Assembly (NCBI GenBank): GCA_044373325.1
Contig: JBILQJ010000013.1
Location: forward strand, 1 to 42,405
Source of the DNA: Burkholderiales bacterium
GTDB taxonomy: Bacteria > Pseudomonadota > Gammaproteobacteria > Burkholderiales > JBILQJ01
Reading direction: 5' to 3'
Length of the DNA stretch: 42,405 nucleotides
Both the position numbers and the translations under genes were made by a program. Of this stretch, positions 1-20,340 are shown in pieces (position 1 is the first letter of the stretch; each line of letters opens with the position of its first letter). The notes beneath the pieces are model-generated. The model was not told where the DNA came from, ran no database searches, and was given only the letters and a program-made list of their open reading frames with translations.

Positions 1-101
1 TTTGCGCCTTAAATTCACTGGGTTTCAAAATTACCAGTATCTCTGACGTGACGCCGGTTCCCCATAATGGGTGCCGTCCGTCTAAAAAACGTCGTATCTA
101 A
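1..101 (+). CDS. rpsK: 30S ribosomal protein S11, 3' partial
   Basis: Frame 3 translates ...[23 protein letters not shown], matching the conserved S11 C-terminus (E. coli ...[23 protein letters not shown]). Stop TAA at 99-101, and rpsD follows as in the alpha operon. Confidence 0.85.
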
Positions 102-122
102 CTTCTCGGAGATTGTGAGAAT

Positions 123-743
123 ATGGCACGTTATACTGGTCCAAAATGTAAACTCTCGCGTCGCGAAGGCACTGATCTATTTTTGAAAAGTGCCCGTCGT
201 TCGCTAGACTCAAAATGTAATGTTGAGAGTCGCCCAGGTCAGCATGGTGCGAAAGTACCAAGACTTTCTGACTTTGGGACGCAACTAAGAGAAAAACAAA
301 AAATTCGTCGTATCTACGGTGTTTTAGAGCGTCAATTTCGTCGTTATTTTGCTGAAGCAGAAAGACGCAAAGGCTCAACAGGCGAGAATCTATTAAAACT
401 TCTTGAATCTCGTTTAGATAACGTTGTTTATCGTATGGGATATGGCTCTACTCGCGCAGAATCGCGTCAGTTAGTTAGCCATAAAGGAATTTTAGTGAAT
501 GGAAAAGTAGTTAACATTCCTTCTTTTTCAGTAAAAGTGGGTGATGTGGTCTCTATTCGTGATAAAGCCAAAAAGCAAGTTCGTATCCAAGAAGCATTGG
601 CACTAGCCCTGCAAATTGGTTTGCCAGCTTGGGTGTCTGTAGATTCCAATAAAATGGAAGGTACATTCAAATCAATGCCAGAGCGAGCTGAATTGTCTAG
701 TGAGATCAACGAACAATTAGTCGTTGAGTTCTACTCGAAGTAA
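123..743 (+). CDS. rpsD: 30S ribosomal protein S4
   Basis: 206 aa starting [23 protein letters not shown]; classic S4 N-terminus and length; position between rpsK and rpoA. Confidence 0.97.
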
Positions 744-771
744 TCTCGCTAGCTCCCTTTAGGAAGAGACT

Positions 772-1755
772 ATGCAAAGCAATGTTTCGGAATTTTTAAG
801 ACCCCGTTTGATCGATGTGCAGTCAATTTCGTCTACCCGTGCACGTGTTTCCATGGAACCTTTTGAGCGTGGTTATGCTCATACTTTAGGTAATGCTTTG
901 CGTCGCATATTGTTATCATCTATGCAAGGTTTTGCACCGACAGAGGTAACCATTGCTGGTGTGTTGCATGAATATTCTGCGTTAGATGGTGTTAAAGAAG
1001 ATGTCGTTGACATTTTACTTAACCTAAAAGGCGTGGTATTTAAACTGCACGGACGAGAGCAAGTTATTTTAGCTTTAAAAAAGACTGGAGAAGGTCCAGT
1101 TAAGGCTAGTGATATTCTGATGTCACATGATGTTGAGGTAATGAATCCTGAACATATCATTTGTAATTTGTCTGCTGGTGGTCAAATTGAGATGGAAATT
1201 AAAGTTGTAAAAGGACGTGGTTACCAACCCGTTTCGGCTCGTATTGGTAAAGATGATAATCGTACTATCGGAGCCATTCAACTTGATGCTTCTTTCTCGC
1301 CAGTTCGTTGTGTGAGTTTTTCAGTAGAAAATGCACGCGTAGAACAAAGAACAGACTTAGATCGCCTTATTTTAGATATAGAAACGAATGGTATTATTGA
1401 ATCGGAAGAAGCTGTTCGGCTTGCTGCACGGATTCTGATTGATCAATTATCTATTTTTGCTGACCTAAAAAGTAGTGAAGAAGAAGTGGTGGTAGAAAAA
1501 GCGCCACCAGTTGATCCTATCTTACTTCGTCCCGTCGATGACTTAGAGTTAACCGTTCGTTCTGCTAATTGTTTAAAAGCAGAAAATATTTATTATATTG
1601 GTGACTTGATTCAACGCACTGAAACCGAGTTATTAAAAACCCCAAATTTAGGACGAAAATCTTTGAATGAAATCAAAGAGGTTCTTGCTTCTAAGGGGTT
1701 GATGCTAGGTGTCAAACTTGATAATTGGCCACCAGAAGGCGCTGATAAGCCCTAA
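772..1755 (+). CDS. rpoA: DNA-directed RNA polymerase alpha subunit
   Basis: 327 aa; [16 protein letters not shown]...[13 protein letters not shown] is near-identical to the E. coli RpoA N-terminal domain; the C-terminal domain motif is present. Confidence 0.97.
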
Positions 1756-1776
1756 GGTTGAAAAAAGGATAATATT

Positions 1777-2160
1777 ATGCGCCATCGCAATGGTAATCGT
1801 AAATTAAATCGTACCAGCAGCCATCGTATGGCTATGTTACGTAATATGGCAAATTCTTTGTTGCAGCACGAAATGATTATTACTACCGTGCCTAAAGCAA
1901 AAGAGTTACGCCGTATTGTTGAACCGCTTATTACATTAGGTAAGAAATCTTCTTTAGCTAATCGTCGTTTGGCTTTTGATCGTACTCGTGACAGAGATAT
2001 GGTTCTTAAGTTGTTTAGTGAATTGAGTGAGCGTTATGCGACTAGAAATGGTGGCTATACTCGAATCCTAAAATGCGGTTTCCGTAAAAATGACAATGCG
2101 CCTTTGGCTATGATAGAGTTAGTTGATCGTCCAGAAGTTGCAGAGCTAGAAGTTGCTTAA
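1777..2160 (+). CDS. rplQ: 50S ribosomal protein L17
   Basis: 127 aa; [56 protein letters not shown] matches L17; last gene of the alpha operon. Confidence 0.97.
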
Positions 2161-2187
2161 TTTAATAGCAATGCTTTATCTTTGATA

Positions 2188-2222
2188 AAAAGCCGACAAG
2201 TTTACTTGTCGGCTTTTTCTTT
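2188..2222 (+). terminator. rho-independent terminator after rplQ
   Basis: Stem AGCCGACAAG / CTTGTCGGCT (2191-2200 / 2205-2214) with loop TTTA, followed by TTTTTCTTTC; sits 28 bp after the rplQ stop. Confidence 0.7.
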
Positions 2223-2238
2223 CGGATTCTAATTCGAT

Positions 2239-2627
2239 TCATACCTCAACTTTATAATTGAGTGTCATCTCGTCACCGCACATACCTCGAATGCCCCAGT
2301 TGGCTTTTGGTGTTTCAAAAAGTGTAATTTCCACGTCTTGTGTTTTTATACCTGTTCTTTCTTGAATATTCTGAAAAATCAGTTGAATAAGCATCTTTTT
2401 TGCTTCGGTGGTGCGGCCTTCAAAAAGACTGATTTCTATGATGGTGTAGTGTTCACTTCTATCATTTGGATAAAGAAACTCTGTTGGGTTTAGCGCAAGC
2501 AGTCGATGAAATTTTTTATCTTTTGGATAGGCTAAGGCGCTTATTACCGCATCATGGATTGCATCACTAATGACAGAGCCATGATGTTGTAAGGTTGTTT
2601 TTAACGCGTATATTTTGACTTGTCCCA
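2239..2627 (-). CDS. tautomerase-family (Tautomerase_3 / 4-OT-like) protein lacking Pro1
   Basis: The track ORF 2239..2745 has a 40-aa N-terminal extension that overlaps an intergenic palindromic copy. An internal ATG at 2625-2627 has an excellent SD (AAAGAGGAAGTAAGT-ATG). The 128-aa product MGQVKIYALK...EGRTTEAKKML...DVEITLFETPKANWGIRG fits the ~130-aa tautomerase-superfamily pattern. Confidence 0.6.
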
Positions 2628-2716
2628 TACTTACTTCCTCTTTATTGAAAGTTGATCGTATCCAGCTTGCTACATTACCGTTTGGTAATATGAAAGATAA
2701 TACGTTAATCAAATGA

Positions 2717-2765
2717 TTGCGGCCAACTTTTTTGTCCAAAAACAAGGAAAAAAGGTTGGCCGCAA
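2717..2765. repeat. GGCCAACC palindromic element copy 1 (left arm slightly degenerate)
   Basis: TTGCGGCCAACTTTTTTG-[tccaaaaacaagg]-AAAAAAGGTTGGCCGCAA. Confidence 0.85.
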
Positions 2766-2793
2766 TGCTTAAAAAAAGAGATAGTTAGGGTTT

Positions 2794-3891
2794 TTATGTT
2801 GAGGTTTCTGTTCTAGCGCGCCCACGTTGCGTTGTGAGTGGTAATCGAATGCTCATGATAAGGCCGTGGGTATCGGTTCTGTTTTGAGCAACTATTGTTC
2901 CTTTGTGAGCAATCACGGCACGTTCAGAAATCGCCAACCCCAATCCAAAGCCACGAGGTTGATTGTCTACCCTGACAAAAGGTTTGAAAATGTGCTCTAA
3001 ATCTTTTTCAGGTACGCCTGGCCCTTCATCAATCACGCCAATTAAAACAAATTCACCATCTTCAGCGGATTCGAGTACGATCCAAACATTAACGGTTGTA
3101 TTCTCTTCAGAATATTTCACGGCATTTCGTATGATGTTTTCAATGGCACGGTAAAGGAGTTCTGGCTGTGCATCTAGCCATATTTCAATTTTTGGTTGTA
3201 TGAAATTGACGGCTTTGTTGTAGGATTGAGCCTCAAAATCAGCATCGTCTGCGATTTGAGCAACGCTTTCTACCAAGGCAATGCGTTCGATTTTTTGTTG
3301 TTGTAAAATGCCAGAATCTAAACGAGACAGGGTTAAGAGTTCTCCAACGAGTTCATCCAGCTGATTGGCTTCTCTTTCTATTCTCAGGATGGTTTCTTCG
3401 ATTTTGAGCGGATTTTGGCGCACGAGTCCAACGGCAGCATGCATGCGAGCTAAGGGCGAACGCAGTTCATGAGAAACATCGTGCAAGAGATTTTGTTGTG
3501 CGACCATCAATTTTTCAAGTTTTCTGACCATATTATCAAAATCATTTGAAAGGTCAGACAATTCATCTCGACGTCCTTTGAATTTGGGAGAAATTTTAAT
3601 ATTAAAATTGCCTGTGCCAATCTCTTTGAATACTTGGCGTAAATAACGAACTGGGCGAGCGATATATAATGAAAGCAAGGTGCTCACCGATAAGCTGGCC
3701 AGTAAACCGATTAACATCCAAATGCTTGGAGAAAGCGCTGCAAAATCGAGTATGGTTTCGGACGCTGGAATGCCATCAATGGGTACATCGCTTTGTTTTT
3801 GATAGAGCCAAACTACCCCAACCACCGTCAGATTGATAATCAGAGAAGTTCCTAAAAAAGCTAAAAAGATTTTCCAAAATAAACGTCCCAT
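2794..3891 (-). CDS. sensor histidine kinase (CpxA/MisS-like; two TMs, very short periplasmic loop, HAMP, HisKA, HATPase)
   Basis: 365 aa; H-box LHDVSHELRSPLARM; N and G boxes (IIRNAVKYS, DEGPGVP, GFGLGLAI); two N-terminal TM helices separated by a ~25-aa loop. Confidence 0.85.
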   Translation of the reverse strand: MGRLFWKIFLAFLGTSLIINLTVVGVVWLYQKQSDVPIDGIPASETILDFAALSPSIWMLIGLLASLSVSTLLSLYIARPVRYLRQVFKEIGTGNFNIKISPKFKGRRDELSDLSNDFDNMVRKLEKLMVAQQNLLHDVSHELRSPLARMHAAVGLVRQNPLKIEETILRIEREANQLDELVGELLTLSRLDSGILQQQKIERIALVESVAQIADDADFEAQSYNKAVNFIQPKIEIWLDAQPELLYRAIENIIRNAVKYSEENTTVNVWIVLESAEDGEFVLIGVIDEGPGVPEKDLEHIFKPFVRVDNQPRGFGLGLAISERAVIAHKGTIVAQNRTDTHGLIMSIRLPLTTQRGRARTETST

Positions 3892-3984
3892 AATGATTTC
3901 TTTCGTTTTAAAAATGAATTTATTTTTTGACTCTGTATGGATTTAAATCCAAGCCTTAACTCTAACCCGAATTGGCTTTAATGA

Positions 3985-4020
3985 AAACCCCATTACGAAA
4001 AGCATTTCATAATGGGGTTT
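3985..4020 (-). other. perfect 11-bp stem-loop in the 162-bp gap between the RR and HK genes
   Basis: AAACCCCATTA-[14 nt]-TAATGGGGTTT; on the coding (minus) strand it is followed only by a short TTTTC run. Confidence 0.35.
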
Positions 4021-4053
4021 GGTTTATCGGGGCTGATTACGATGAAGGCGTCA

Positions 4054-4758
4054 TTATTGCAAACGGATTAACATATAACCAGAGCCTCGGACGGTTTGTA
4101 TCCACGAGCGGCCATCGGGTGTTTTGCCTAATTTTTGGCGTATGCTACAAATATGAACGTCAACGCTGCGATCAAAGCGAGACAATGGCCGAGATAAAGC
4201 ATCTTGAGACAATTGGGTTTTACTGACGACTTTGCCTGCTTGTCGTGCCAAGGCTTCCAATAGGCTGAATTCTGCGCCAGTTAAGTCCAAATCGTGATCT
4301 TTCCACACGGCACGGCGTTGTTCTAAATACAAAGTTAAATCGCCTTGTGTTAATTCGCTTGATTCTATGGTAACGGGCAAGTGATTTTTTGTACGGCGCA
4401 AAATGGCGCGGATGCGTGCGATGAGTTCACGAGGTACGCAAGGCTTGGTGACATAATCGTCAGCTTCGAGCTCTAGTCCGATGATGCGATCGATTTCTTC
4501 ACCGCGTGCGGTTAATAAAATCACGGGTACTGAATTTTCAGCACGGATACGACGTAAGGCTTCAATGCCGTTTAATTTGGGCATCATGACATCTAAGACC
4601 ACCAAATCAAAGTGCTTAGACAGCGCCATAGAAACACCCGCTTCACCATCATGGGCAATCGAAACTTCAAAATTTTCTTGCTCGGCATATTCTTTGAGCA
4701 TAGAAACGAGAACAACGTCATCATCAACAAAAAGTAGTTTGAGTGGGGCGCTAGACAT
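4054..4758 (-). CDS. OmpR-family response regulator (CpxR/MisR-like)
   Basis: 234 aa; receiver domain (LLFVDDD...D54...LTARGEEIDRIIGLELEADDYVTKP) plus a winged-helix domain with LTGAEFSLLEALA, SRFDRSVDVHICSIRQKL and RGSGYML, close to E. coli CpxR. Confidence 0.9.
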   Translation of the reverse strand: MSSAPLKLLFVDDDVVLVSMLKEYAEQENFEVSIAHDGEAGVSMALSKHFDLVVLDVMMPKLNGIEALRRIRAENSVPVILLTARGEEIDRIIGLELEADDYVTKPCVPRELIARIRAILRRTKNHLPVTIESSELTQGDLTLYLEQRRAVWKDHDLDLTGAEFSLLEALARQAGKVVSKTQLSQDALSRPLSRFDRSVDVHICSIRQKLGKTPDGRSWIQTVRGSGYMLIRLQ

Positions 4759-4987
4759 GATTTTTCCTTTTTAAAAATTTAAGGGTTTAAATGGGTTAAT
4801 TTACAGCTGAAAACAGCGATGAAAAGTTGCAATCACCTTGTTTTTATATCGACAAGTAATGATGATGTCCTGATTATAGCCAAATGTTAAGAATACTCCA
4901 GCTTTAATGTAAAATAATTTGATAAAAATTGTATTTGTTCTTGCTTTAGTTGAGTTGTTTTTATTTAAATCTTTGATTTTTAATCAG

Positions 4988-5037
4988 TTGTGGTCAATAT
5001 TTTTATCCGAAAATTGGGCAAAAAGGTTGGCCGCACG
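4988..5037. repeat. palindromic element copy 2 (left arm decayed)
   Basis: TTGTGGTCAATATTTTT-[atccgaaaattgggc]-AAAAAGGTTGGCCGCAC. Confidence 0.6.
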
Positions 5038-5317
5038 ATTTCTAATCGGTGAATTCTGCTGGTAGAATAAGGCTAGGGTTTCCACTTTTGGCATTACAAA
5101 AAAATGAGTTTTGTGACTAAGCGCTTAAACATCGGCGGCAGTAGCGCGTTAAAGTGGCTTATGAACTGGCTTGCTAAAATAAGGCTAGCCCAGTCATTTT
5201 TTGCTTACCAAGGCGTTGGGTTTTTTTGGTTCGCGCGATTTTTTTATCACGATATGTCGGTTTCAAGTGTAGGATAGTTTTTTACCTGCATCCGCGCATA
5301 TTAACGAGGAGACACAC

Positions 5318-6961
5318 ATGCCCGCCTATACCGATAAAACAAAGCTCAATCTTACTTATTTTCAAACCCAATCACTCAACATGCCTCAATTTAAAAAAAT
5401 GGCCTTGGCGTTTGTGGTTTTGGCTGCGACGGCCAATTTAGCGCAAGCCGCTGGCACTTTGGTGTATTGTTCGGATGCCAGCCCTGTTTTTTTTGATGGC
5501 GCGCAATCGAATTCAGGTACCGATTTTAATGCGGGTTCTCGCGCCATGTTTGATACTTTGCTGGCTTACAAGCCAGGGACTACCGAATTGATTCCGAGTT
5601 TGGCTAAAACATGGGACATTTCAGCGGATGGCAAAACCTATATTTTTCATTTGCGCGAGGGCGTAAAGTTTCACACCACCGATTATTTTAAACCCACGCG
5701 CACCTTGCAAGCCGAAGATGTGGTGTTCAGTTTTGGGCGCATGGTCAATCCGCAGCACCCCGCCAATAAAGTTTATCCTGTTGAATATCCTTATGTGGTT
5801 TCTACGGGCTTGAGGGCGAATATTGCGTCCATTAAAAAAATCGATGCCTTGACGGTTGAATTCAAATTAAAAGAAGTCGATGCGCCATTTTTGTCTAAAG
5901 TGGCGATGGCTTTTGCTGCGATACAATCGGTCGAGTACGCGCAACAATTGGCTAATGCGGGGCGGTTGTCCGATATCAATCACAAGCCAATCGGTACGGG
6001 GCCATTTGTGTTCGGCAGTTACGTCAAAGATGAGGTCATTCGTTACAACGGCAATGTTGAGTATTGGAATCCTGCGGCGATTAAATTGGATAAATTGGTC
6101 TTTGCAATTACCAAAGATGCGGCGGTGCGTTCGCAAAAGCTGACTAAAGGCGAGTGCGATTTGATTGCCAACGCCAATCCTGCGGATATTGCCGCAATGA
6201 AAGCCCATCCTGCTTTAAAAATAGAAACGGGTACTTCGCTCAACGTGGCTTATGTGGCTTACAACACTGAAAAAGCCGAGTTGAAAAATCCGCTGGTGCG
6301 GCAAGCGTTAGATCTGGTCATCGACAGGCAAGCCATTGTTGCGGCGGCTTATCAAGGCTATGCCAAATCGGCGGCCAGCTTTTATCCGCCCATTTTGTGG
6401 TCGCACAATCGCAGCCTCAAAAACGCGGCAGCCGACCTCACCAAAGCCCGTGCTTTGTTGGCCAAAGCAGGTTATCCAAATGGTTTTGAAACCGATTTAT
6501 GGGCTTTGACCAGTAATCCGATTCGCAAAATCACCGCCGAATTAATCCAAGCTGATTGGGCAAAAATTGGTGTAAAAGCGAACATTGTGACCTTTGAATG
6601 GGGCGAATTTTTAAAGCGCATCAAACAAGGCGAGCACAAAACCACGTTGATGGGTTGGACGGCGGATTATGCCGACCCCGATGGATTTGCCAGCCCTTTA
6701 TTGACCTGTAAAGCCGTTAATGGCGTGAATTTTGCACGCTATTGCGCCCCAGAATTTGAAGCATTAGTGAATAAAGCTGTAAATATCACCAACGTGGCCG
6801 AACGAACCCAGCTTTACGAACTAGCGCAAACGGTGTTTAAAGCCGATTTGCCTTGGTCGCCCATTGCCTACGCTTCGATTAATCAACCCATGCGAAAAAT
6901 GGTGCAAGGCTTTAAAGTGGGTGCTTTTGGTGAATATGATTTCCGTTATGTGAGTAAATAA
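5318..6961 (+). CDS. dppA: ABC transporter substrate-binding protein, DppA family (family 5 SBP), paralogue 1
   Basis: Signal peptide MPQFKKMALAFVVLAATANLAQA followed by AGTLVYCSDASP...; DppA-like throughout (E. coli DppA KTLVYCSEGSPEGF...). The ATG at 5318 has a strong SD (GAGGAG-6nt-ATG) but gives a 21-aa N-terminal extension; alternative ATGs at 5381 and 5399 have no SD. Confidence 0.85.
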   Translation: MPAYTDKTKLNLTYFQTQSLNMPQFKKMALAFVVLAATANLAQAAGTLVYCSDASPVFFDGAQSNSGTDFNAGSRAMFDTLLAYKPGTTELIPSLAKTWDISADGKTYIFHLREGVKFHTTDYFKPTRTLQAEDVVFSFGRMVNPQHPANKVYPVEYPYVVSTGLRANIASIKKIDALTVEFKLKEVDAPFLSKVAMAFAAIQSVEYAQQLANAGRLSDINHKPIGTGPFVFGSYVKDEVIRYNGNVEYWNPAAIKLDKLVFAITKDAAVRSQKLTKGECDLIANANPADIAAMKAHPALKIETGTSLNVAYVAYNTEKAELKNPLVRQALDLVIDRQAIVAAAYQGYAKSAASFYPPILWSHNRSLKNAAADLTKARALLAKAGYPNGFETDLWALTSNPIRKITAELIQADWAKIGVKANIVTFEWGEFLKRIKQGEHKTTLMGWTADYADPDGFASPLLTCKAVNGVNFARYCAPEFEALVNKAVNITNVAERTQLYELAQTVFKADLPWSPIAYASINQPMRKMVQGFKVGAFGEYDFRYVSK

Positions 6962-6985
6962 CCCTGTCTTTTTTATGACTAACCC

Positions 6986-7033
6986 TTGCGGCCAACCTTT
7001 TTCTGAAAAATCAGGGAAAAAGGTTGGCCGCAA
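6986..7033. repeat. palindromic element copy 3
   Basis: TTGCGGCCAACCTTTTTCTGAAAAATCAGGGAAAAAGGTTGGCCGCAAG, preceded by the shared 20-bp flank CTTTTTTATGACTAACCCTTG (6968-6988). Confidence 0.95.
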
Positions 7034-7145
7034 GAGTTCTCAACATTAATAAACAAGACAAAACCGCTTTCATTGCGCTAAAATGGCGCGTTTTAAGCGA
7101 CAATGTGTCATTTTGCACCATCAACCCTCATTTTTGAAAGTTTTT

Positions 7146-8531
7146 ATGAACGAACTCTTGAGCAAATTCATTCCGATTATTTTCGCTATTTTATTCCTCA
7201 GCTTGATTGTTTATGTCGCGGTGTTGATTTTTAAACTGCGCCGAGTGGTGCCAACCAATGAAGTGCACATTATCCAATCGAGCAAAACCACCATGTCGTA
7301 CGGCAAAGACACCGAAAACGGCAACACCTATTATGAGTGGCCATCTTGGATGCCAAAAATCGGTTTGACCAAAATCATTTTGCCCGTCAGCGTGTTTGAT
7401 TTGGACTTGCAAGACTACGAAGCTTATGACAAAGGGCGCTTGCCGTTTGTTGTGGATGTGAAGTCCTTCTTTCGCATACACGACTCCAACCTTGCGGCGC
7501 AACGCGTGGCCTCATTTGACGACTTAAAAAGCCAACTTAAAGCCATTGTACAAGGCGCGGTGCGCACCATTTTGGCCTCCAACGAAATTGAAGCCATCAT
7601 GCAAGGGCGATCGGAGTTTGGCGAAGCATTTACCTCCGAAGTCAGAGAGCAGCTCACCAATTGGGGCGTGGTTCCTGTCAAAAACATTGAATTAATGGAC
7701 ATTCGCGACGCGACGGACAGTCAAGTGATACACAACATCATGGAAAAGAAAAAATCCCTGATTGAAATGCAAAGCCGCTCAGAAGTGGCCGAAAATATGA
7801 AAACCGCCAAAGTCGCCGAAATCAACGCCAAGCGTGAAACCGAAGTTCAGGAACAAGACGCCATCCAAAAAGTGGGCGAGCGCAAAGCCGAAACCGACAA
7901 AGCGGTTGGGATTGCCAATGAAAAATCCACTCAAGAAATTGCCGAACAAGTCAAAATCACCAAAGAACGCCAAATGGAAGTGGTGAAAGTGACTGAAGTC
8001 AAGCAAGCCGAAATCACCAAAGAAGTGCAATTGGTCAAGGCCGAACAAGACAAGCAAACCAGCATTATTAACGCCGAAGCGGCCAAGCAAAAACTCATGA
8101 TTGTGGCGGAGGGCGAAAAGCAAAAAACCGTTTTGGATGCGGAAGGGTTGCTCGAGTCCAAACAACGTGAATCGCAAGGGATTGCGCTGGAAGGTCAAGC
8201 TCGCGCAGATGCAGAAAAAGCCATGCAATTGGCGCCCGTTCAAGCGCAAATCGTGTTGGCCAACGAAATTGGTAGCAACGACAAATATCAGCAGTATTTG
8301 TTGGCGGTTGAACAAATTAAAGCCAATCAAGTTGTGGGTGTCGAACAAGCGCGTGCGCTTGAGAAAGCCGACATTAAAATTATTGCCAACACCGGCGATG
8401 TCAGCTCTGGCATCAGCAATTTGGGCGATGTTTTGAGCTCAAAAGGCGGTACGTCATTGGCGGCAATGCTTGAAGGTTTGTCGCAAACCGACGCTGGCAA
8501 AGCATTGGTGAATAAAATTTCGGGGAAGTAA
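7146..8531 (+). CDS. flotillin/SPFH (band 7) domain protein, YqiK/FloT-like
   Basis: N-terminal TM helix (FIPIIFAILFLSLIVYVAVLIF), an SPFH core, then a long E/A/K/Q-rich coiled coil (flotillin tail). The start is taken at the internal ATG (MNELLSKF); the track ORF begins 21 codons earlier. Confidence 0.8.
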   Translation: MNELLSKFIPIIFAILFLSLIVYVAVLIFKLRRVVPTNEVHIIQSSKTTMSYGKDTENGNTYYEWPSWMPKIGLTKIILPVSVFDLDLQDYEAYDKGRLPFVVDVKSFFRIHDSNLAAQRVASFDDLKSQLKAIVQGAVRTILASNEIEAIMQGRSEFGEAFTSEVREQLTNWGVVPVKNIELMDIRDATDSQVIHNIMEKKKSLIEMQSRSEVAENMKTAKVAEINAKRETEVQEQDAIQKVGERKAETDKAVGIANEKSTQEIAEQVKITKERQMEVVKVTEVKQAEITKEVQLVKAEQDKQTSIINAEAAKQKLMIVAEGEKQKTVLDAEGLLESKQRESQGIALEGQARADAEKAMQLAPVQAQIVLANEIGSNDKYQQYLLAVEQIKANQVVGVEQARALEKADIKIIANTGDVSSGISNLGDVLSSKGGTSLAAMLEGLSQTDAGKALVNKISGK

Positions 8532-8584
8532 TCGGTTTTTATCACACGTTTGAATCTGAGTGAGCTTTGTTTTTTTATGACTAA

Positions 8585-8638
8585 CCCTTGTGGCCAACCT
8601 TTTTCTGAAAAATCAGGGGAAAAGGTTGGCCGCAAGGG
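8585..8638. repeat. palindromic element copy 4
   Basis: CCCTTGTGGCCAACCTTTTTCTGAAAAATCAGGGGAAAAGGTTGGCCGCAAGGG, with the same 20-bp 5' flank (8571-8590) as copy 3. Confidence 0.95.
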
Positions 8639-8725
8639 TTTTGTGTTGTTGGCGTTTAAACTGCGTTAGAATAGTGGTTTTTTCTAGCGCTAAAAACAAG
8701 GGCTAGTCAACACAGGCGATGAACC

Positions 8726-10405
8726 ATGATTTCTTTTTTCAAACGCCATAAAGCGAGTCACGCATTTTCGACCCGCTTGCCTCCCAAACCCGCCACTTTT
8801 TTGAACACACACGCCCCACTGCTTTTCTTTGCGTTGGTGTTTACGGTTTTTTTTAATGTCACTTTTTTTAAGAAATTGCTGGCGCTGTACGCTTTGCCCC
8901 AAAATTTAGGCTTTGTGATTTCGGTGACTTTGTGCCTTTTTTTTGTGCATGCTTTGTTGTTGGGGCTGGTGTGTTGGGGGCGAGCGCGGCAATGGCTGCT
9001 GGCTGGATTGATTGTTGTTGGTGGTTTTTCTGCGTATTACATGGACAATTTTCGGGTGGTCATTGATCAAATTATGTTGGTGAATGCCGTGCAAACCAAT
9101 CCTGCTGAGGCGGCCGATTTGTTGACGTGGCGCTTGTTGCTGTATGTGGTTTTTTTGGTGATTTTGCCCATCATTTTGTTGATAAAAACCCCTTGGCCAC
9201 GCGCCACTTTTGTGCGGGGTTTAAAACACAGGCTGGTGTATTTGTTGTTGTGTTTATTGGGTTTTGTGTTGGGCGTGTTGCCCGCGTATTCGCATTATCC
9301 CAGCTTTTTACGCCAGCATAAAATGGTGCGTTTTTATTCGAATCCAATCACGCCGATTTATTCGGCGGTGCAATTTGCCCGTCATCTGATACCCAAAGCA
9401 ACCGTGATTGCGCGGGTGTTAGATCACAACCCTAAAGCGGATCAAAATGAGGGGCATCGTGAGTTGGTGATTTTGGTGCTGGGCGAAACGGCACGCGCCG
9501 ATCGATTCTCGCTCAATGGCTACAAGCGATACACCAATCCCTTGTTGTCGAATGAAGCCAACGTGATTAGCTTGCCCAATCTCAGTTCTTGCGGCACCAG
9601 CACGGCGGTTTCTGTGCCGTGTATGTTTTCGGCTTTGCCGCGCGAGTCCTTTTCTGATGAAGCCTTTAAAGCCGAAGAAAATGTCATAGACGTGTTGGCA
9701 CGAGCTGGCGTTAACGTGTTGTGGCGGGATAACAATTCGGACAGTAAAGGTGTGATGAGTCGTTTTACGATAGAAAATTACAAAGAACCCGCACTGAATT
9801 CGGTTTGTGACGTGGAATGTCGCGATGAAGGGATGTTGGTGGGTTTGCAAAAGTACATCGATTCGCACCCTAAAGGCGATATTTTGATTGTGTTGCACGC
9901 CATGGGCAGCCACGGGCCTGCTTATAGTAAACGTTATCCCAAAGCCTTTGAACAGTTTAAGCCTGCTTGCGACACGGTACAGATTGAACAATGCGACAAA
10001 GCGTCCATTGACAACGCTTATGACAACACGATTTTATACACCGATTATTTTTTGAGTGAAACCATTGCTTTGCTCAAGGCAAATTCGCCTAAATTTGAAG
10101 CGTCTATGATATACATGAGCGATCATGGCGAATCTTTGGGCGAAAATGGCTTGTATTTACACGGCTTGCCGTATGCGTTAGCACCCCAAGAACAAAAAAA
10201 TCCTGCGGCTTTAGTGTGGTTTAGCGACGGCGCTTTGGCAGACAACACCGAAGCAAAAAAATTTGAGACCTTAAAAAAACAAGCCTCGCATCCGTATACT
10301 CACGATAATTTATTTCACAGTTTGTTGGGCTTGTTTGAAGTGCAAACCAGCGTTTATCGCCCAGAGTTAGACGTCTTTGACGCGCGTAGCAGCGCCGCGC
10401 CTTAA
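8726..10405 (+). CDS. eptA: phosphoethanolamine--lipid A transferase (EptA/LptA/MCR family)
   Basis: 559 aa; five N-terminal TM helices plus a periplasmic sulfatase-type domain. Motifs align almost residue-for-residue with MCR-1 and Neisseria LptA: VLGETARADRFSLNGY, CGTSTAVSVPCMFS, WRDNNSDSKGVM, HAMGSHGPAYSKRYP, YMSDHGESLGENGLYLHG. Confidence 0.92.
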   Translation: MISFFKRHKASHAFSTRLPPKPATFLNTHAPLLFFALVFTVFFNVTFFKKLLALYALPQNLGFVISVTLCLFFVHALLLGLVCWGRARQWLLAGLIVVGGFSAYYMDNFRVVIDQIMLVNAVQTNPAEAADLLTWRLLLYVVFLVILPIILLIKTPWPRATFVRGLKHRLVYLLLCLLGFVLGVLPAYSHYPSFLRQHKMVRFYSNPITPIYSAVQFARHLIPKATVIARVLDHNPKADQNEGHRELVILVLGETARADRFSLNGYKRYTNPLLSNEANVISLPNLSSCGTSTAVSVPCMFSALPRESFSDEAFKAEENVIDVLARAGVNVLWRDNNSDSKGVMSRFTIENYKEPALNSVCDVECRDEGMLVGLQKYIDSHPKGDILIVLHAMGSHGPAYSKRYPKAFEQFKPACDTVQIEQCDKASIDNAYDNTILYTDYFLSETIALLKANSPKFEASMIYMSDHGESLGENGLYLHGLPYALAPQEQKNPAALVWFSDGALADNTEAKKFETLKKQASHPYTHDNLFHSLLGLFEVQTSVYRPELDVFDARSSAAP

Positions 10406-10431
10406 GCCCTGACGAGTGAGTGTGCAGTACT

Positions 10432-10493
10432 TTGCGGCCAACCTTTTTATCTTGATTTTCATGACGAAAAACAGGAAAAAAGGTTGGCCGCAA
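10432..10493. repeat. palindromic element copy 5 (33-nt loop)
   Basis: TTGCGGCCAACCTTTTTAT-[cttgattttcatgacgaaaaacagg]-AAAAAAGGTTGGCCGCAA. Confidence 0.9.
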
Positions 10494-10709
10494 CGGTTTC
10501 CTTACAAAAAAATGAGTGTTTTAACAAATTTATTATATAAAAATGCCAGCAAATGGCGATGGTTGGACCGAGAGCTTTTTAAAATATAGAAAATAGACTT
10601 ACTAATAAATTGGTTGCGGTGTCACACTGGTTTTTTGTGGTGGCCTGTCTCGGCGTGCTTAGCGTAAGATTGGTTTTCTTAACAAAAAGTTAACCCAAAG
10701 GAGAAGACG

Positions 10710-12308
10710 ATGCAAATCAGCGTCAAAAAACTGGCAACTGTTTTGAGTGTTTTGGTTTTGGCCACTTCGGCGCACTGGGCGATCGCCGACAAAGGCACTT
10801 TTGTGTATTGTTCGGAAGGCAGCCCTGCTGGGTTCGATTCTTCGCAATATACATCGGGTATTGATTTTAATGCAGGCGCTTACGCCCTATTTGATAAATT
10901 GGTGGCGTACAAACCCGGCACTTCAGAAATCATACCCAGCTTGGCCGAAAGTTGGGACGTGTCGCCCGATGGAAAAACATACACGTTTCATTTGCGCCCC
11001 AATGTCCAGTTTCATAGCACCGATTATTTTAAACCCACGCGCAATTTTCAGGCTGAAGATGTGTTATTTACCTTTGGGCGCATGATTAAAAAAGATCACC
11101 CATCTAACCGCTTGTACCCAGCCGAATACCCCAACGCGGTGGATATGGGTTTGACGCGCAACATCGTTTCCATCAAAAAAATAGATAATTTGACCGTTGA
11201 ATTTAAGCTGCAAAAAGTCGATGCGCCGTTTTTGAAAAAAATCGCAGTGCCCTTTGCGATGATACATTCGGCGGAATACGCGCAACAATTGGCCAACCGT
11301 GGGCAATTGGCTCAACTCAACCAAAAACCCATAGGCACAGGGCCGTTTATTTTTAGTAGTTACGCTAAAGATGAGGCCATTCGTTATCTTGGCAATAAAA
11401 ACTATTGGGACGCTGACGCGGTGAAAATTGATAAATTGGTTTTTTCTATCGTGCCTGATGCTGCTGTGCGCTATCAAAAAATGAAAAAAGGTGAATGCGA
11501 TTTAATCGGCACGCCCAACTTTACCGACATTGATGCCATGCGGAAAGAGCCTGATTTTAAAGTACAAGATGCCACGGGCGTGAATATCGGTTATTTGGCC
11601 TATAATACCGAAAAACCAGAAACCAAAAAACTGGCGGTACGTCAAGCCTTGGACATGGCCATCAATCGCCAAGCTTTGGTTGAAGCAGCGTATGGCAATC
11701 AAGGGGTTGTGGCCATTAACCCGTATCCAGCCGCTTTGTGGTCGCACAATACCAGCGTAAAAAATGCACCTTTTAATGTCGAAAAAGCCAAAGCTTTGTT
11801 GGCTCAAGCAGGCTATCCCAATGGTTTTGAAACCGACCTTTGGACGACGACGCACGACAAATCTTGGCGCAGAATGGCCGAAATGATACAAGCCGATTGG
11901 GCAAAAATTGGCGTTAAAGCCAACATCGTCAGCTACGAAACGGCGGAGTTTTTAAAGCGCATTAGCTTGGGCGAATACACGACGACTTTGTCTTCTTGGG
12001 GCGGTGGCTATGCCGATCCTGACCATTTTTTAGGCACGTTGTTGACCTGTCGTGCAGTGGGTGGTTCGAATGTGGCGCGTTATTGTTCTGCCGAATACGA
12101 TGCCTTGGTCGAAAAAGCGGTGACTCTGACCAATCAAACCGAGCGAAGCAAACTTTACGAACAAGCGCAAGTCCTTTTAAAACGCGATTTGCCATGGACA
12201 ACCTTGACGCACACCGCACGTAACCAGCCTATGCGCAAGTCGGTGCAAGGCTACAACGTCAGCCCTTCAGGTTCTCGAGATTTTCGTTACGTGAGTAAAT
12301 CGGAATAA
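10710..12308 (+). CDS. dppA: DppA-family substrate-binding protein, paralogue 2
   Basis: 532 aa; signal peptide MQISVKKLATVLSVLVLATSAHWAIA; SD AAGGAGAAG; paralogous to 5318..6961 along its whole length. Confidence 0.9.
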   Translation: MQISVKKLATVLSVLVLATSAHWAIADKGTFVYCSEGSPAGFDSSQYTSGIDFNAGAYALFDKLVAYKPGTSEIIPSLAESWDVSPDGKTYTFHLRPNVQFHSTDYFKPTRNFQAEDVLFTFGRMIKKDHPSNRLYPAEYPNAVDMGLTRNIVSIKKIDNLTVEFKLQKVDAPFLKKIAVPFAMIHSAEYAQQLANRGQLAQLNQKPIGTGPFIFSSYAKDEAIRYLGNKNYWDADAVKIDKLVFSIVPDAAVRYQKMKKGECDLIGTPNFTDIDAMRKEPDFKVQDATGVNIGYLAYNTEKPETKKLAVRQALDMAINRQALVEAAYGNQGVVAINPYPAALWSHNTSVKNAPFNVEKAKALLAQAGYPNGFETDLWTTTHDKSWRRMAEMIQADWAKIGVKANIVSYETAEFLKRISLGEYTTTLSSWGGGYADPDHFLGTLLTCRAVGGSNVARYCSAEYDALVEKAVTLTNQTERSKLYEQAQVLLKRDLPWTTLTHTARNQPMRKSVQGYNVSPSGSRDFRYVSKSE

Positions 12309-12312
12309 GCCT

Positions 12313-12362
12313 TTGCGGCCAACCTTTTTTAAGCCATTTCTCTGTTAAAAGGTTGGCCGCAA
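12313..12362. repeat. palindromic element copy 6
   Basis: TTGCGGCCAACCTTTTTTAAGCCATTTCTCTGTTAAAAGGTTGGCCGCAA, 5 bp after the dppA2 stop. Confidence 0.95.
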
Positions 12363-12532
12363 CCTGAACGGTTGTTTGTTTTTACTTTAATTTACCCAAA
12401 AATCAAAAAATGTTATATCTTTTGGCTGTTGAACGGTGGCAAGGTTCAACAGGTTTGAACTTTGCGCAATGAATCATTTTAGGGCGCGGGGCTTCTTTTT
12501 GAGGATTAATTTTTTGATGGGTTAAGATAAAA

Positions 12533-14146
12533 ATGAACGTTCAATTCAAAAAAATAGCAGTTGCCTTAAGCGTATTGGGCGCGTTGGGCGCGACCAGTTC
12601 GGCCATCGCAGCCGGAACTTTAGTTTATTGTTCTGATGCAAGTCCTGCTGGATTTGACGTGGCGCAGTTTACTGCTGGCACCGATTTCGACGCGGGCGCA
12701 CGCACCATGTTTGACAGCTTGTTGGCCTACAAACCGGGCACAACAGAAATGATTCCTGCTTTGGCCGAAAAATGGACGATTTCCGAAGATGGCAAAACGT
12801 ACACGTTTCAGTTGCGTACTGGCGTGAAGTTTCACACGACCGATTACTTTACGCCGACTCGTGATTTGCAAGCCGAAGATGTCATTTTTACCTTTGGGCG
12901 CATGATTAAAAAAGATCACCCGTCTAACCAAGCCTATCCTGCACAGTTTCCGTATGCAGGTTCTTTGGGCTTGGACAGCAACATTCTTTCGATTAAAAAA
13001 ATCGACAACTTAACGGTTGAATTTAAATTAAAAGAAGTTGATGCGCCATTTTTGGCCAAAATTGCCATGGATTTTGCGTCCATTCAATCGGTTGAATACG
13101 CACAAAAACTGGCGAATGCCGGGCGATTGGCCGAAATTAATCAAAAACCCATCGGCACGGGGCCTTTTGTGTTTAGCAGTTACACCAAAGACGAAACCAT
13201 CCGTTACACCGCCAATCCCAATTATTGGAATAAAGCAGCGGTTCAGTTGGATAAGTTGATTTTTTCAATCAACAAAGAAGCCTCTGTGCGCTATCAAAAG
13301 CTGAAAAAAGGCGAGTGTGATATTTTGGCTTATCCCAACCCCAGTGACGTGGCTGAAATGAAAAAAGATGCCACTTTGAAGGTGGACAGCGCGCCGGGCT
13401 TTAGCGTGGGTTATGTGGCTTACAACACTCAAAAAGCCGAAATGCAAAAACGAGAAGTACGACAAGCGTTAGACATGGCCATTAATCGTAAAGCCATCGT
13501 CGAGGCGGTGTATCAAGGTCAAGGCCAAGAAGCGACTAACCCTTTTCCACCTTCTTTGTGGTCGTACAATACCACGCTCAAAAATGCGCCTGTTGATATC
13601 ACGAAAGCCAAAGCTTTATTGGCCAAAGCAGGTTATCCAAATGGCTTTGAAACCGAGCTTTGGGCGATGCCAGTGCAACGCGCTTACAATCCCAACGCCA
13701 AATTAATGGCCGAAATGATACAAGCCGACTGGGCAAAGATAGGCGTTAAAACCAAAATCGTGAGCTTTGAATGGGGCGAATATTTGAAGCGCGCTCGCAA
13801 GGGCGAACACACAGCGGGGTTATTTGGCTGGTTGGGCGATTTTGCTGACCCAGATAATTTTTTGGGCGTGTTATTGACTTGTAAGTCAGTAGGCGGCCCG
13901 AATTATGCGCAATATTGTTCGCCAGAATTTGATGCCTTAGTCAATAAAGCCGCCCGCACCACCGACGTGGCCGAGCGGACAAAATTGTACGAAGAAGCGC
14001 AGGTGATTTTCAAACGCGATTTGCCGTGGACTACCATCGCCCATTCGACGGTTAATCAACCCATGCGCAAAGAAGTGATGGGCTTTAAAATCAGCCCTTT
14101 TGGTAATTATGACTTCCGTTATGTGAGTAAATCCGCCAGCAACTAA
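12533..14146 (+). CDS. dppA: DppA-family substrate-binding protein, paralogue 3
   Basis: 537 aa; signal peptide then AAGTLVYCSDASPAGFD; closest to paralogue 4 (shared IKKDHPSN, QGQGQEA, NPNAKLMAEMIQADWAKIGVKTKIV). Confidence 0.9.
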   Translation: MNVQFKKIAVALSVLGALGATSSAIAAGTLVYCSDASPAGFDVAQFTAGTDFDAGARTMFDSLLAYKPGTTEMIPALAEKWTISEDGKTYTFQLRTGVKFHTTDYFTPTRDLQAEDVIFTFGRMIKKDHPSNQAYPAQFPYAGSLGLDSNILSIKKIDNLTVEFKLKEVDAPFLAKIAMDFASIQSVEYAQKLANAGRLAEINQKPIGTGPFVFSSYTKDETIRYTANPNYWNKAAVQLDKLIFSINKEASVRYQKLKKGECDILAYPNPSDVAEMKKDATLKVDSAPGFSVGYVAYNTQKAEMQKREVRQALDMAINRKAIVEAVYQGQGQEATNPFPPSLWSYNTTLKNAPVDITKAKALLAKAGYPNGFETELWAMPVQRAYNPNAKLMAEMIQADWAKIGVKTKIVSFEWGEYLKRARKGEHTAGLFGWLGDFADPDNFLGVLLTCKSVGGPNYAQYCSPEFDALVNKAARTTDVAERTKLYEEAQVIFKRDLPWTTIAHSTVNQPMRKEVMGFKISPFGNYDFRYVSKSASN

Positions 14147-14174
14147 ACCCGAGCAATCAGGGCAAATAAACATA

Positions 14175-14229
14175 TTGCGGCCAGCCTTGCCGAGTTTTTC
14201 GTCAAAAACATTAAAAAGGTTGGCTGCAA
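14175..14229. repeat. palindromic element copy 7 (both arms mutated)
   Basis: TTGCGGCCAGCCTTGCC...AAAAAGGTTGGCTGCAA. Confidence 0.7.
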
Positions 14230-14409
14230 CTTTATGGCGAATTTGGCTTGCACTGCAACATAAAAAAGCGCTTGCCAATAGAATGTGCTTGTTATATTGT
14301 CTTGCCTTCAATTTTTAGATGGCTTATCAGCCCTTATGTCATAAATGATAGGCTTTTTTGTCTATGGCGCATACGCGCAAAGATTTTTACATCATAAAAA
14401 GGAAGAAAC

Positions 14410-18187: not shown

Positions 18188-18260
18188 GGCCAGCAGCCTT
18201 TAAAGTTGATTTTCAGACACAAGGTTGGCCGCAAGCGTATTGCCTGCTGCGGCCAACCTT
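18188..18260. repeat. composite palindromic element (1.5 copies) between dppC and dppD
   Basis: Decayed left arm AAGGCCAGCAGCCTTT, then spacer, then AAGGTTGGCCGCAAGC-[gtattgcct]-GCTGCGGCCAACCTT. The last two arms form a tight hairpin in the inverted configuration. Confidence 0.8.
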
Positions 18261-20290: not shown

Positions 20291-20340
20291 TTGCGGCCAA
20301 CCTTTTTCCCTATTTTTTGGGGTAAAAGGTTGGCCGCAAG
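20291..20340. repeat. palindromic element copy 10
   Basis: TTGCGGCCAACCTTTTTCCCTATTTTTTGGGGTAAAAGGTTGGCCGCAAG. Confidence 0.95.

What the first reader, a model, noticed from the sequence alone, without database searches (positions are those of the whole stretch)
6968..8638. Flotillin gene bracketed by near-identical ~70-bp direct repeats
Copies 3 and 4 share not only the palindrome but a 20-bp 5' flank (CTTTTTTATGACTAACCCTTG) and the same loop (TCTGAAAAATCAGGG). They are ~95% identical over ~70 bp and lie in direct orientation on either side of the flotillin gene (6968-7033 and 8571-8638). Flanking direct repeats permit looping-out or duplication of the 1.6-kb flotillin module, suggesting recent mobility of this cassette into the dpp locus.
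Basis: seen in the sequence. Interest (0 to 1): 0.6.

Follow-up and report, generated by a model that had tools for sequence, protein, structure and literature searches.

The report
Strain-variable flotillin gene between repeat hairpins
The two repeats around the flotillin gene are real, but they belong to a hairpin family found after almost every gene in this uncultured Neisseriaceae bacterium; recombination between them has cleanly removed the gene in close relatives, which is an ordinary kind of gene loss rather than a newly arrived mobile cassette.

Summary
Window 6969-7038 and 8571-8640 are 67/70 identical direct repeats on either side of the flotillin (SPFH) gene.

They are not a special bracket. 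Each is the 3' hairpin of the gene before it (dppA1, then flotillin). Both belong to a family built from the 16-mer AAAAGGTTGGCCGCAA, which has 32 arms in 42 kb against 0.13 expected, 31 of them intergenic.

This pair is still an outlier. Its flank and loop are 95% identical, against 66% or less for the other 54 pairs.

Contigs about 98% identical (L087, L089) and a more diverged lineage (L083, L084) read dppA1, one repeat, eptA, with 1,602 bp missing.

Flotillin also sits at the same site in six other contigs. Four of them (L096, L097, L098 and L141, which is identical to the window over 1.76 kb) have a different loop in the downstream hairpin. Its GC content and divergence match its neighbours, and no mobility gene is nearby.

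Best reading: an old resident gene module lost by recombination between dispersed hairpin repeats, with both alleles shuffled by homologous recombination. A recent insertion into the dpp locus is not supported.

Side lead: the 16-mer may be an undescribed DNA uptake sequence.

The parts
6965..7040 (+). Repeat copy 3 (E3), the 3' hairpin of dppA1. 5' flank TTTTTTATGACT, stem arms 6981-7003 and 7016-7038, loop CTGAAAAATCAG.
   Evidence: D3, I5; -39.4 kcal/mol. It starts 25 nt after the dppA1 stop. It is present unchanged in L141, L087 and L089.
8568..8642 (+). Repeat copy 4 (E4), the 3' hairpin of flotillin. 67/70 identical to copy 3 and followed by a T-rich run (GGGTTTTGTGTTGTT).
   Evidence: D3, I10; -42.2 kcal/mol. 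In L096, L097, L098 and L141 the element at this position has a different loop (CCCCATTTTTTTGAATGC or similar).
7041..8567 (+). The unique part of the 1,602-bp unit that is missing from empty-site alleles: flotillin promoter region, coding sequence and 36-nt 3' tail.
   Evidence: L087 and L089 align to window 1-7038 and then 8568 onward, overlapping by 74 nt. L083 and L084 do the same.
7055..7084 (+). Promoter-like site of the flotillin module (AAGACA, 18 nt, TAAAAT). The second hexamer reads TATAAT in the other flotillin-carrying contigs.
   Evidence: This is a consensus match only and has not been tested.
7146..8531 (+). Flotillin/SPFH coding sequence, 461 aa. The mechanical ORF from 7083 (482 aa) probably starts too early.
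   Evidence: PF01145. Homologues are 465-470 aa and do not cover the first 21 residues. Most members of its 90% cluster are 461 aa. The ATG at 7146 is in frame.
4985..5036 (+). Copy 2 (E2), a decayed element of the same loop type, lying between the divergent response-regulator and dppA1 genes. It is the left breakpoint of the dppA1-less contig L001.
5318..6961 (+). dppA1, a second module that varies between strains. It is absent from L001.
8610..8935 (+). Block that is 0-3 mismatches from the flotillin-less alleles (L086, L087, L089) and diverged from the flotillin-carrying L141, L096 and L098. It includes the right half of E4, the eptA promoter region and the first 200 nt of eptA.
8726..10405 (+). 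eptA (phosphoethanolamine--lipid A transferase), the right-hand anchor gene.
10432..10493 (+). Next family member (E5), the 3' hairpin of eptA. It has the same arms but an unrelated 28-nt loop.
   Evidence: (I14).

Best explanation
Shown:
- The two repeats are the 3' hairpins of dppA1 and of flotillin.
- They belong to a lineage-specific family of intergenic hairpins whose stems carry a sharply bounded 16-mer, AAAAGGTTGGCCGCAA.
- Flotillin here looks like a self-contained module: promoter-like site, coding sequence, hairpin.
- It sits between dppA1 and eptA in several diverged lineages of one uncultured Neisseriaceae population.
- Flotillin-less alleles carry one hybrid hairpin.
- Identity to other contigs is mosaic, with sharp block boundaries.

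Inferred:
- The hairpins are dispersed stretches of homology in direct orientation. Recombination between the one before and the one after the module (RecA-type crossover or replication slippage) deletes exactly module plus one hairpin. dppA1 keeps a terminator and eptA keeps its own promoter.
- This has happened at least once for flotillin, probably twice on two backgrounds, and probably once for dppA1.
- Both alleles are then shuffled by homologous recombination, plausibly natural transformation.
- The unusually high identity of copies 3 and 4 is a feature of this haplotype. It reflects local recombination or gene conversion, not the scar of a recent insertion.
For: 1. Family. There are 32 arms in 42.4 kb against 0.13 expected, and 31 of 32 are intergenic although 84% of the window is coding. 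Complete pairs lie 5-60 nt after stop codons. Only positions -4 to +11 of the arm are conserved, and loops of 12-28 nt are unrelated. The hairpins fold at -29 to -44 kcal/mol.

2. Empty site. L087 and L089 align to window 1-7038 and then 8568 onward with a 74-nt overlap. Their single element equals copy 3 at the two left differences and copy 4 at the right one, which places the crossover in the 19-nt right arm. Copies 3 and 4 share no exact stretch of 31 nt or more, so a k-mer collapse during assembly cannot explain these contigs.

3. Recent relationship. L087 matches the window with 0-3 mismatches over 6882-7038 plus 8610-8935, with diverged sequence outside.

4. Second background. L083 and L084 (no flotillin) have the left part of an L096/L140-type E3 joined to the right part and flank of the L140-type E4.

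5. Old residence. Flotillin is at the same site in L096 (8.4-kb contig running from the kinase gene to dppA2), L097, L098, L140, L141 and L142. It is 95.9-97.3% identical between lineages, and its GC and GC3 equal its neighbours'.

6. Near-identity is haplotype-specific. L141 is identical to the window over 6118-7880 yet carries loop b in E4.

7. A similar event for dppA1. L001 reads response regulator, one element, flotillin. Its junction is an L090-type left arm of E2 joined to the loop of E3.

8. Mosaicism. Block boundaries lie near 7880 and 8935.
Against: - The direction of the original event cannot be fixed. There is no outgroup with this synteny: the next relative, L085 (eptA 70% identical), has a different gene context.
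- Flotillin's nearest homologues outside this population are only 73-76% identical and are named Methylotenera or come from environmental bacteria. An old horizontal acquisition is therefore possible.
- The 72-nt duplication is also what single-crossover integration of a circle would leave.
- All evidence comes from metagenome contigs of different samples. L001 is a single short Logan contig, seen in 2 samples.
- No recombination was observed directly.
- Whether the hairpins terminate transcription is untested. The simple terminator scan did not flag them because their loops exceed its 8-nt limit.
Confidence: 0.7

Rival explanations
1. One reading: flotillin recently inserted into an empty dppA1-[repeat]-eptA site in the window's lineage. 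This could be single-crossover (Campbell-type) integration of a circular module at the resident hairpin, which duplicates the 72-nt unit.
For: Empty sites exist on two backgrounds. The duplication includes a non-palindromic flank. The flanks of the window and of L087 are almost identical, so the event that separates them is recent. Flotillin has no homologue closer than 76% outside this population.
Against: Any donor circle must itself come from an arrangement like the window's, so that arrangement has to exist first. Flotillin occupies the same site, with the same 5' junction, in six other contigs, and four of them have a non-identical downstream hairpin. Its composition and divergence look native. 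No integrase is adjacent. Copy 4 differs from copy 3 and from the empty-site copy at 2 positions.
Confidence: 0.2
2. The hairpins are attC-like sites and the region is an integron-like cassette array, so flotillin is excised and inserted by an integron-type tyrosine recombinase.
For: Each gene is followed by an imperfect palindrome. The arms contain GGCCAAC and GTTGGCC, each 6/7 to the attC core consensus RYYYAAC / GTTRRRY (consensus from my own knowledge; sequence). The crossover in the empty-site allele maps to the right arm, which contains GTTGGCC.
Against: The same hairpins follow housekeeping genes (eno, fabF, rne, a sensor kinase) on both strands and between convergent genes. Flotillin and eptA have their own promoter-like regions. 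The only tyrosine recombinase in the window passes the general Xer-type tyrosine recombinase model (339.8 bits, cut-off 279); its best specific match is XerD (310.0, below that model's cut-off of 329.6), and it scores 104.8 against a cut-off of 265 for integron integrase. The dppA1 deletion in L001 has its crossover in the left arm.
Confidence: 0.04
3. The flotillin-less contigs are assembly artefacts, produced when an assembler jumps across the two similar repeats.
For: The repeats are 96% identical, and metagenome assemblies often break or misjoin at repeats. L002, L086 and L142 do end inside the elements.
Against: The longest exact match between copies 3 and 4 is 27 nt, below usual k-mer sizes. 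L087 and L089 come from different samples and differ from the window by 5-20% in parts of dppA1, so they are other strains. L083's single element has its own sequence and the contig recurs in 16 samples. Contig lengths in the cluster listings suggest further contigs that hold dppA1 and eptA without flotillin (16,439 and 5,727 bp).
Confidence: 0.03

Closest known systems
Minimal mobile elements (MMEs) of Neisseria: sites between conserved genes where strains carry different or no genes, exchanged by transformation and flanking homology. Listed (for example PMC1538595, PMC3082526); I did not read those papers, so the concept is from my own knowledge.
   Same: Same bacterial family. One gene is present or absent between the same two conserved genes. 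No mobility gene is involved. Flanks are mosaic, as expected from recombination.
   Different: Here the breakpoints fall inside a dispersed hairpin repeat and leave one hybrid copy, so the loss itself is repeat-mediated. MMEs are defined by flanking-gene homology, not by a bounding repeat.
Neisseriaceae DNA uptake sequences (DUS dialects), often found as inverted pairs in terminators (PMC3630211, title and abstract as listed; bioRxiv 10.1101/2025.10.24.684340, read).
   Same: The density is about one arm per 1.3 kb. It is a short, sharply bounded motif with free flanks, paired in 3' hairpins. A sister lineage has a variant flank and many copies inside genes. It shares GCGGCC with the proposed Vitreoscilla massiliensis dialect AGCGGCCTGTAA.
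   Different: It is 16 nt with an A-tract and lacks the CTG core. It has no match to any of ten known DUS dialect 10-mers. In the window, 31 of 32 arms are intergenic, against about 34% of DUS inside coding sequences in N. meningitidis (PMC11893778). Uptake has not been tested.
dRS3 / NTS hairpin repeats of Neisseria and Ssn-related motifs (PMC11893778).
   Same: They are intergenic hairpin repeats, rarely inside genes, that cluster around variable genes in a repeat-gene-repeat layout and are proposed to influence recombination of transforming DNA.
   Different: There is no sequence match to dRS3, NTS or NTSvar (0 hits). NTS is a compact hairpin of fixed geometry with an oriented flank, whereas here arm spacing varies from 5 to 28 nt. 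No GIY-YIG (Ssn-type) match appeared among the ORFs I scanned; several ORFs were not scanned, and the rest of the genome was not seen.
REP / BIME / REPIN elements mobilised by RAYT transposases, and deletions between REP copies (my own knowledge; mentioned in PMC11893778).
   Same: They are abundant extragenic palindromes at gene 3' ends, often as inverted doublets, and can act as substrates for rearrangement.
   Different: The 16-nt unit is not itself a palindrome. Doublet spacing and loops are not conserved. No RAYT gene is in the window.

Membership tests
Neisseriaceae DNA uptake sequence (DUS) | A short motif present about once per kb on both strands and far above chance | tested here: met
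   32 arms in 42.4 kb against 0.13 expected. It is the only over-represented k-mer series.
Neisseriaceae DNA uptake sequence (DUS) | Sequence related to GCCGTCTGAA, with the conserved CTG core | tested here: not met
   0 copies of ten known DUS dialect 10-mers. In DUS orientation the motif reads TTGCGGCC-AAC-CTTTT, so it has no CTG. It shares only GCGGCC with the Vitreoscilla dialect.
Neisseriaceae DNA uptake sequence (DUS) | A sizeable fraction of copies inside coding sequences | tested here: inconclusive
   In the window 1 of 32 arms is inside a gene. In the related contig L085, TTGGCCGC occurs 21 times in 16.5 kb, and 15 of these are inside called genes.
Neisseriaceae DNA uptake sequence (DUS) | Frequent inverted pairs in 3' terminator hairpins | tested here: met
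   11 complete pairs, all directly after stop codons; strong hairpins.
Neisseriaceae DNA uptake sequence (DUS) | Enhances DNA uptake through the ComP minor pilin | not testable with these tools
   This needs uptake or transformation assays and the full genome.
Minimal mobile element (Neisseria) | Different gene content between the same conserved flanking genes in different strains | tested here: met
   dppA1-flotillin-eptA (window, L096, L098, L140, L141) against dppA1-eptA (L083, L084, L087, L089).
Minimal mobile element (Neisseria) | No transposase, integrase or terminal inverted repeats of its own | tested here: met
   Pfam and NCBIfam scans of the neighbouring genes.
Minimal mobile element (Neisseria) | Exchanged by transformation and homologous recombination in the flanks | tested here: inconclusive
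   Mosaic identity blocks with sharp boundaries fit this. Transformation itself is not testable here.
Integron gene cassette (attC) | intI, attI and the Pc promoter next to an array of co-oriented, promoterless cassettes | tested here: not met
   No IntI: the Xer-type recombinase at 26041-26943 scores 104.8 against a cut-off of 265 for integron integrase. The hairpins follow housekeeping genes on both strands.
Integron gene cassette (attC) | R''/R' core sites RYYYAAC / GTTRRRY | tested here: inconclusive
   GGCCAAC and GTTGGCC are each 6/7 to the consensus (consensus from my own knowledge).
REP / REPIN (RAYT-associated) | The unit is itself an imperfect palindrome, and doublets have conserved spacing | tested here: not met
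   The 16-mer is not self-complementary. Loops are 12-28 nt and unrelated in sequence.
REP / REPIN (RAYT-associated) | A RAYT (Y1 transposase) gene in the genome, flanked by the repeats | not testable with these tools
   None was found in the window. The rest of the genome was not available.
dRS3 / NTS / Ssn-related motif | Match to ATTCCC-N8-GGGAAT, NTS or NTSvar | tested here: not met
   0 hits even with 1-4 mismatches allowed.
Transposon / IS / MITE (such as the Correia element) | Terminal inverted repeats with a target-site duplication, and a conserved internal sequence | tested here: not met
Internal loops are not conserved. The 72-nt duplication is far longer than a transposase target duplication.

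The most novel reading that the evidence does not exclude
The 16-mer AAAAGGTTGGCCGCAA (core TTGGCCGCA) is an undescribed DNA uptake sequence, lacking the CTG core, of an uncultured Neisseriaceae clade. A dialect (AAGCTTGGCCGCA) occurs in a sister lineage. Built into the terminator of nearly every gene, it would do three jobs: uptake tag, 3' hairpin, and portable homology. Single promoter-gene-hairpin modules such as flotillin and dppA1 would then be easy to lose and to regain by transformation.
Probability: 0.3. Interest if true: 0.6.

Novelty: new member of a known kind. Interest (0 to 1): 0.35.

Why it matters
For the finding itself, the value is a correction. A tidy 'cassette with flanking direct repeats' turns out to be the ordinary result of a genome full of dispersed hairpin repeats plus frequent recombination. 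It is a clean natural example of a precise deletion product, its parent allele and mosaic flanks all recovered from metagenomes.

It also shows that near-identical flanking repeats need not mark a recent insertion. Here they are specific to one haplotype.

The wider lead is the repeat family. No known uptake sequence is present in this Neisseriaceae lineage, and this 16-mer occupies the genomic niche that uptake sequences fill in its relatives. If it does drive DNA uptake, it would extend the known sequence range of such signals and of their receptor.

Tried and rejected
- Scan of genome contigs with EptA: no relatives found.
- Scan of genome contigs with RpoA: only other genera at 82% identity or less (Chromobacterium, Aquitalea, Aquaspirillum). 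None carries the repeat. This places the organism but gives no synteny.
- Scan of metagenome contigs with flotillin: only relatives at 76% or less, and no further haplotypes.
- Rfam at gathering threshold: no family anywhere in the window.
- Full-text search for the motif strings: only unrelated primer-type hits.
- The simple terminator scan does not flag the elements, because their loops exceed its 8-nt limit.
- I looked for the L001-specific 3' tail in the window and loci; it was found only in L001 at first and later in L140.
- L142 adds no new haplotype; it is of the L141 type.
- Rejected: transposon or MITE, integron cassette, dRS3/NTS and assembly artefact. Reasons are in the membership table and the rival explanations.
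- Not used: structure prediction and fold search. The flotillin protein's fold is not in question.
Full report
**1. The observation**

The region reads as described. The repeat finder gives one two-copy direct family, 6969-7038 and 8571-8640, 70 nt and 96% identical, 1,602 nt apart (D3).

Each copy has three parts:
- a 12-nt non-palindromic flank, TTTTTTATGACT;
- a 21-23-bp perfect stem;
- the loop CTGAAAAATCAG (I5 and I10).

As RNA the two copies fold at -39.4 and -42.2 kcal/mol, and no shuffle folds as well.

The ORF between them is an SPFH/Band 7 protein that sources name flotillin. Its true start is most likely the ATG at 7146, giving 461 aa. Homologues do not cover the first 21 residues of the 7083 ORF, and most members of its cluster are 461 aa.

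The gene to the left is a DppA-type binding protein. The gene to the right is an EptA-type lipid A phosphoethanolamine transferase. Upstream, on the other strand, lies a two-component pair. Downstream are three more dppA paralogues and dppBCDF.

**2. The repeats belong to a genome-wide family**

The arm AAAAGGTTGGCCGCAA occurs 32 times in the window with at most 2 mismatches. The expectation is 0.13, and no shuffle reached 32. Seventeen copies are exact.

The arms form 11 complete hairpins plus single or decayed arms. Thirty-one of 32 arms are intergenic although 84% of the window is coding. The complete hairpins begin 5-60 nt after a stop codon. They follow the sensor kinase gene, dppA1-4, flotillin, eptA, dppF, eno, waaC, fabF and rne, among others.

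A position matrix shows a sharply bounded 16-nt conserved block. The flanks are unconserved and the loops are unrelated, 12-28 nt long.

So a palindrome on each side of flotillin is what any gene here would show. One is the dppA1 hairpin and the other is flotillin's own.

What is unusual is the identity outside the arms. It is 95% for this pair, and at most 66% (median 54%) for the other 54 pairs.

**3. The organism**

The window is a whole 42,405-bp metagenome contig held by NCBI and JGI. A 91%-identical EptA cluster carries the name 'MAG: Neisseriaceae bacterium'.

RpoA is 81-82% identical to Chromobacterium, Aquitalea and Aquaspirillum serpens. The loci from those genera lack the repeat.

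**4. Related alleles**

Exact-protein look-ups gave contigs from the same population:

| Type | Contigs | Arrangement |
|---|---|---|
| Empty site | L087 (16.7 kb) and L089 (11.9 kb), two JGI samples, about 98% identical | Response regulator, dppA1, eptA, dppA2. They align to window 1-7038 and then 8568 onward with a 74-nt overlap, so they hold exactly one copy of the unit |
| Empty site, second background | L083 (seen in 16 samples) and L084, 86-94% identical | dppA1, one element, eptA |
| Flotillin present, downstream loop differs | L096 (8.4 kb, kinase gene to dppA2), L097, L098, L141; L142 (L141 type) ends before that hairpin | Same arrangement and same 5' junction; the downstream hairpin has loop CCCCATTTTTTTGAATGC or similar, and the eptA promoter region is diverged |
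| Flotillin present, third 3' junction | L140 | A different tail, an a-like loop, and the L083-type eptA promoter. It is the flotillin-carrying counterpart of L083 |
| dppA1 absent | L001 | Response regulator, one element, flotillin |

In L087 and L089 the single copy equals copy 3 at the two left differences and copy 4 at the right one. The crossover therefore lies in the 19-nt right arm.

In L001 the junction is an L090-type left arm of copy 2 joined to the loop and right side of copy 3.

Contig lengths in the cluster listings suggest more contigs that hold dppA1 and eptA without flotillin, at 16,439 and 5,727 bp.

**5. These are not assembly artefacts**

Copies 3 and 4 share at most 27 exact bases. 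L087 and L089 differ from the window by 5-20% in parts of dppA1. L083 has its own element sequence.

**6. Mosaic structure**

- The window is identical to L141 over 6118-7880. That span covers the end of dppA1, copy 3 and the first half of flotillin.
- It is about 3% diverged from all sampled alleles over 7880-8540.
- It is 0-3 mismatches from the flotillin-less L087, L089 and L086 over 8610-8935.
- It is closest to L096 over 8939-9230.

In L087, the parts matching window 6882-7038 and 8610-8935 form one contiguous block of about 520 nt around its single hairpin. The window and L087 therefore differ, inside an otherwise identical block, only by the 1,602-bp unit. That event is recent.

Any donor for an insertion would already need the flotillin, tail, flank, hairpin order seen in the window. 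The simpler direction is deletion from a window-like allele.

L141 is the window's closest flotillin-carrying relative on the left and has loop b. So the near-identity of copies 3 and 4 is specific to this haplotype. It could come from local gene conversion, or from recombination with an allele that carries the a-type element. My data do not decide between these.

**7. Is flotillin foreign?**

Its GC is 47.3% and its GC3 is 55%, the same as its neighbours. Its divergence between lineages (95.9-97.3%) is within the range of the flanking genes.

Outside this population the best homologues are 73-76% identical, from Methylotenera-like and other environmental bacteria. An old acquisition is possible, but nothing points to a recent one.

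No mobility gene is nearby. The only recombinase in the window is Xer-type, with XerD as its best specific match.

**8. How it most likely works**

Shown:
- The module is a promoter-like site (7055-7084; TATAAT in other alleles), then the coding sequence, then a strong hairpin followed by a T-rich run.
- Hairpins of the same family lie in direct orientation before and after it.
- The precise deletion product exists.

Inferred:
- Crossover or slippage between the hairpins removes the module plus one hairpin. dppA1 keeps a terminator and eptA keeps its own promoter, so the loss has no polar cost.
- Both alleles persist and are shuffled by homologous recombination. In this family that is plausibly natural transformation.

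**9. What the repeat family is**

None of ten known DUS dialect 10-mers, nor the Haemophilus USS core, occurs in the window; the Actinobacillus-type USS core occurs once. The arm is the only over-represented k-mer series.

Several features fit an uptake sequence built into terminator stems. Any stem that carries the motif automatically carries its complement in the other arm.
- The density is about one arm per 1.3 kb.
- The motif has sharp edges, and the loops are free to vary.
- The arms occur in both relative orders: most pairs are arranged the usual way, but 18219-18258 and 38454-38490 have the reverse order.
- In the more distant L085, TTGGCCGC occurs 21 times in 16.5 kb, 15 times inside genes. 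The flank there is either AAGC or AAAAGG, which looks like a dialect.
- A 2025 preprint proposes AGCGGCCTGTAA for Vitreoscilla massiliensis, which shares GCGGCC with this motif.

Other features count against it. The motif has no CTG core and is 16 nt long. In the window it is almost entirely intergenic, which is more like NTS/dRS3 hairpins (2% inside genes) than DUS (34%).

I put the uptake-sequence reading at about 0.3-0.4. A protein-recognised hairpin repeat of the REP or NTS kind is about equally likely.

**10. Verdict**

It is partly wrong: this is not a recently arrived mobile cassette, and the bracket is a by-product of a hairpin after every gene.

This is a new example of a known kind of event, repeat-mediated gene loss at a site that resembles a Neisseria minimal mobile element. 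Interest is modest. The repeat family itself is the more interesting lead.

Noticed in passing
whole window (for example 2717-2765, 12313-12362, 20291-20339, 31438-31486); L085: The 16-mer AAAAGGTTGGCCGCAA is the only hyper-abundant k-mer: 17 exact copies and 32 with up to 2 mismatches in 42 kb. None of ten known DUS dialects occurs (one copy of one USS core). The related contig L085 has the core TTGGCCGC 21 times in 16.5 kb, mostly inside genes, with a variant flank (AAGCTTGGCCGCA). It is a candidate undescribed uptake sequence or hairpin-repeat system.
   Followed up: partly
window 5037-6985 compared with L001:927-1010: dppA1 is absent from contig L001, which reads response regulator, one hairpin, flotillin. 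The junction joins the left arm of copy 2 to the loop of copy 3. This is a second gene module lost between hairpins at the same locus. It rests on one short Logan contig seen in 2 samples.
   Followed up: partly
L140:540-600: In L140 the hairpin after dppA1 has lost its whole left arm. It looks like a 14-nt slippage deletion between two CCAACCTT repeats, which shows how these elements decay.
   Followed up: no
window 8532-8725 compared with L096, L098, L141 and L140: The region downstream of flotillin has at least three structurally different versions, differing in tail, flank, loop and eptA promoter. The upstream junction is constant. The eptA promoter region is unusually diverged between alleles.
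   Followed up: partly
window 18219-18258 and 38454-38490: Two pairs have the arms in the reverse order (AAAAGGTTGGCCGCA..TGCGGCCAACCTTTT) with very short spacers of 5-14 nt. This suggests the 16-mer, not the whole hairpin, is the unit.
   Followed up: no
window 5318-15999: There are four dppA paralogues, about 71-76% identical in DNA, each with its own hairpin, upstream of dppBCDF. Flotillin and eptA split the first paralogue from the other three.
   Followed up: no
window 7083-7145: The flotillin ORF as called (482 aa from 7083) probably starts 21 codons too early. The ATG at 7146 gives the 461-aa form seen in most relatives.
   Followed up: yes
window 39167-41257: A 696-aa protein with O-antigen ligase domains (Wzy_C and Wzy_C_2) and no NCBIfam name. 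It might be a PglL-type protein glycosylation ligase, as in Neisseria, but that is my guess.
   Followed up: no
window near 7880 and near 8935: Sharp switches in which contig the window is identical to (L141, then none, then L087, then L096) within 2 kb. This indicates very frequent short-patch recombination in this population.
   Followed up: partly
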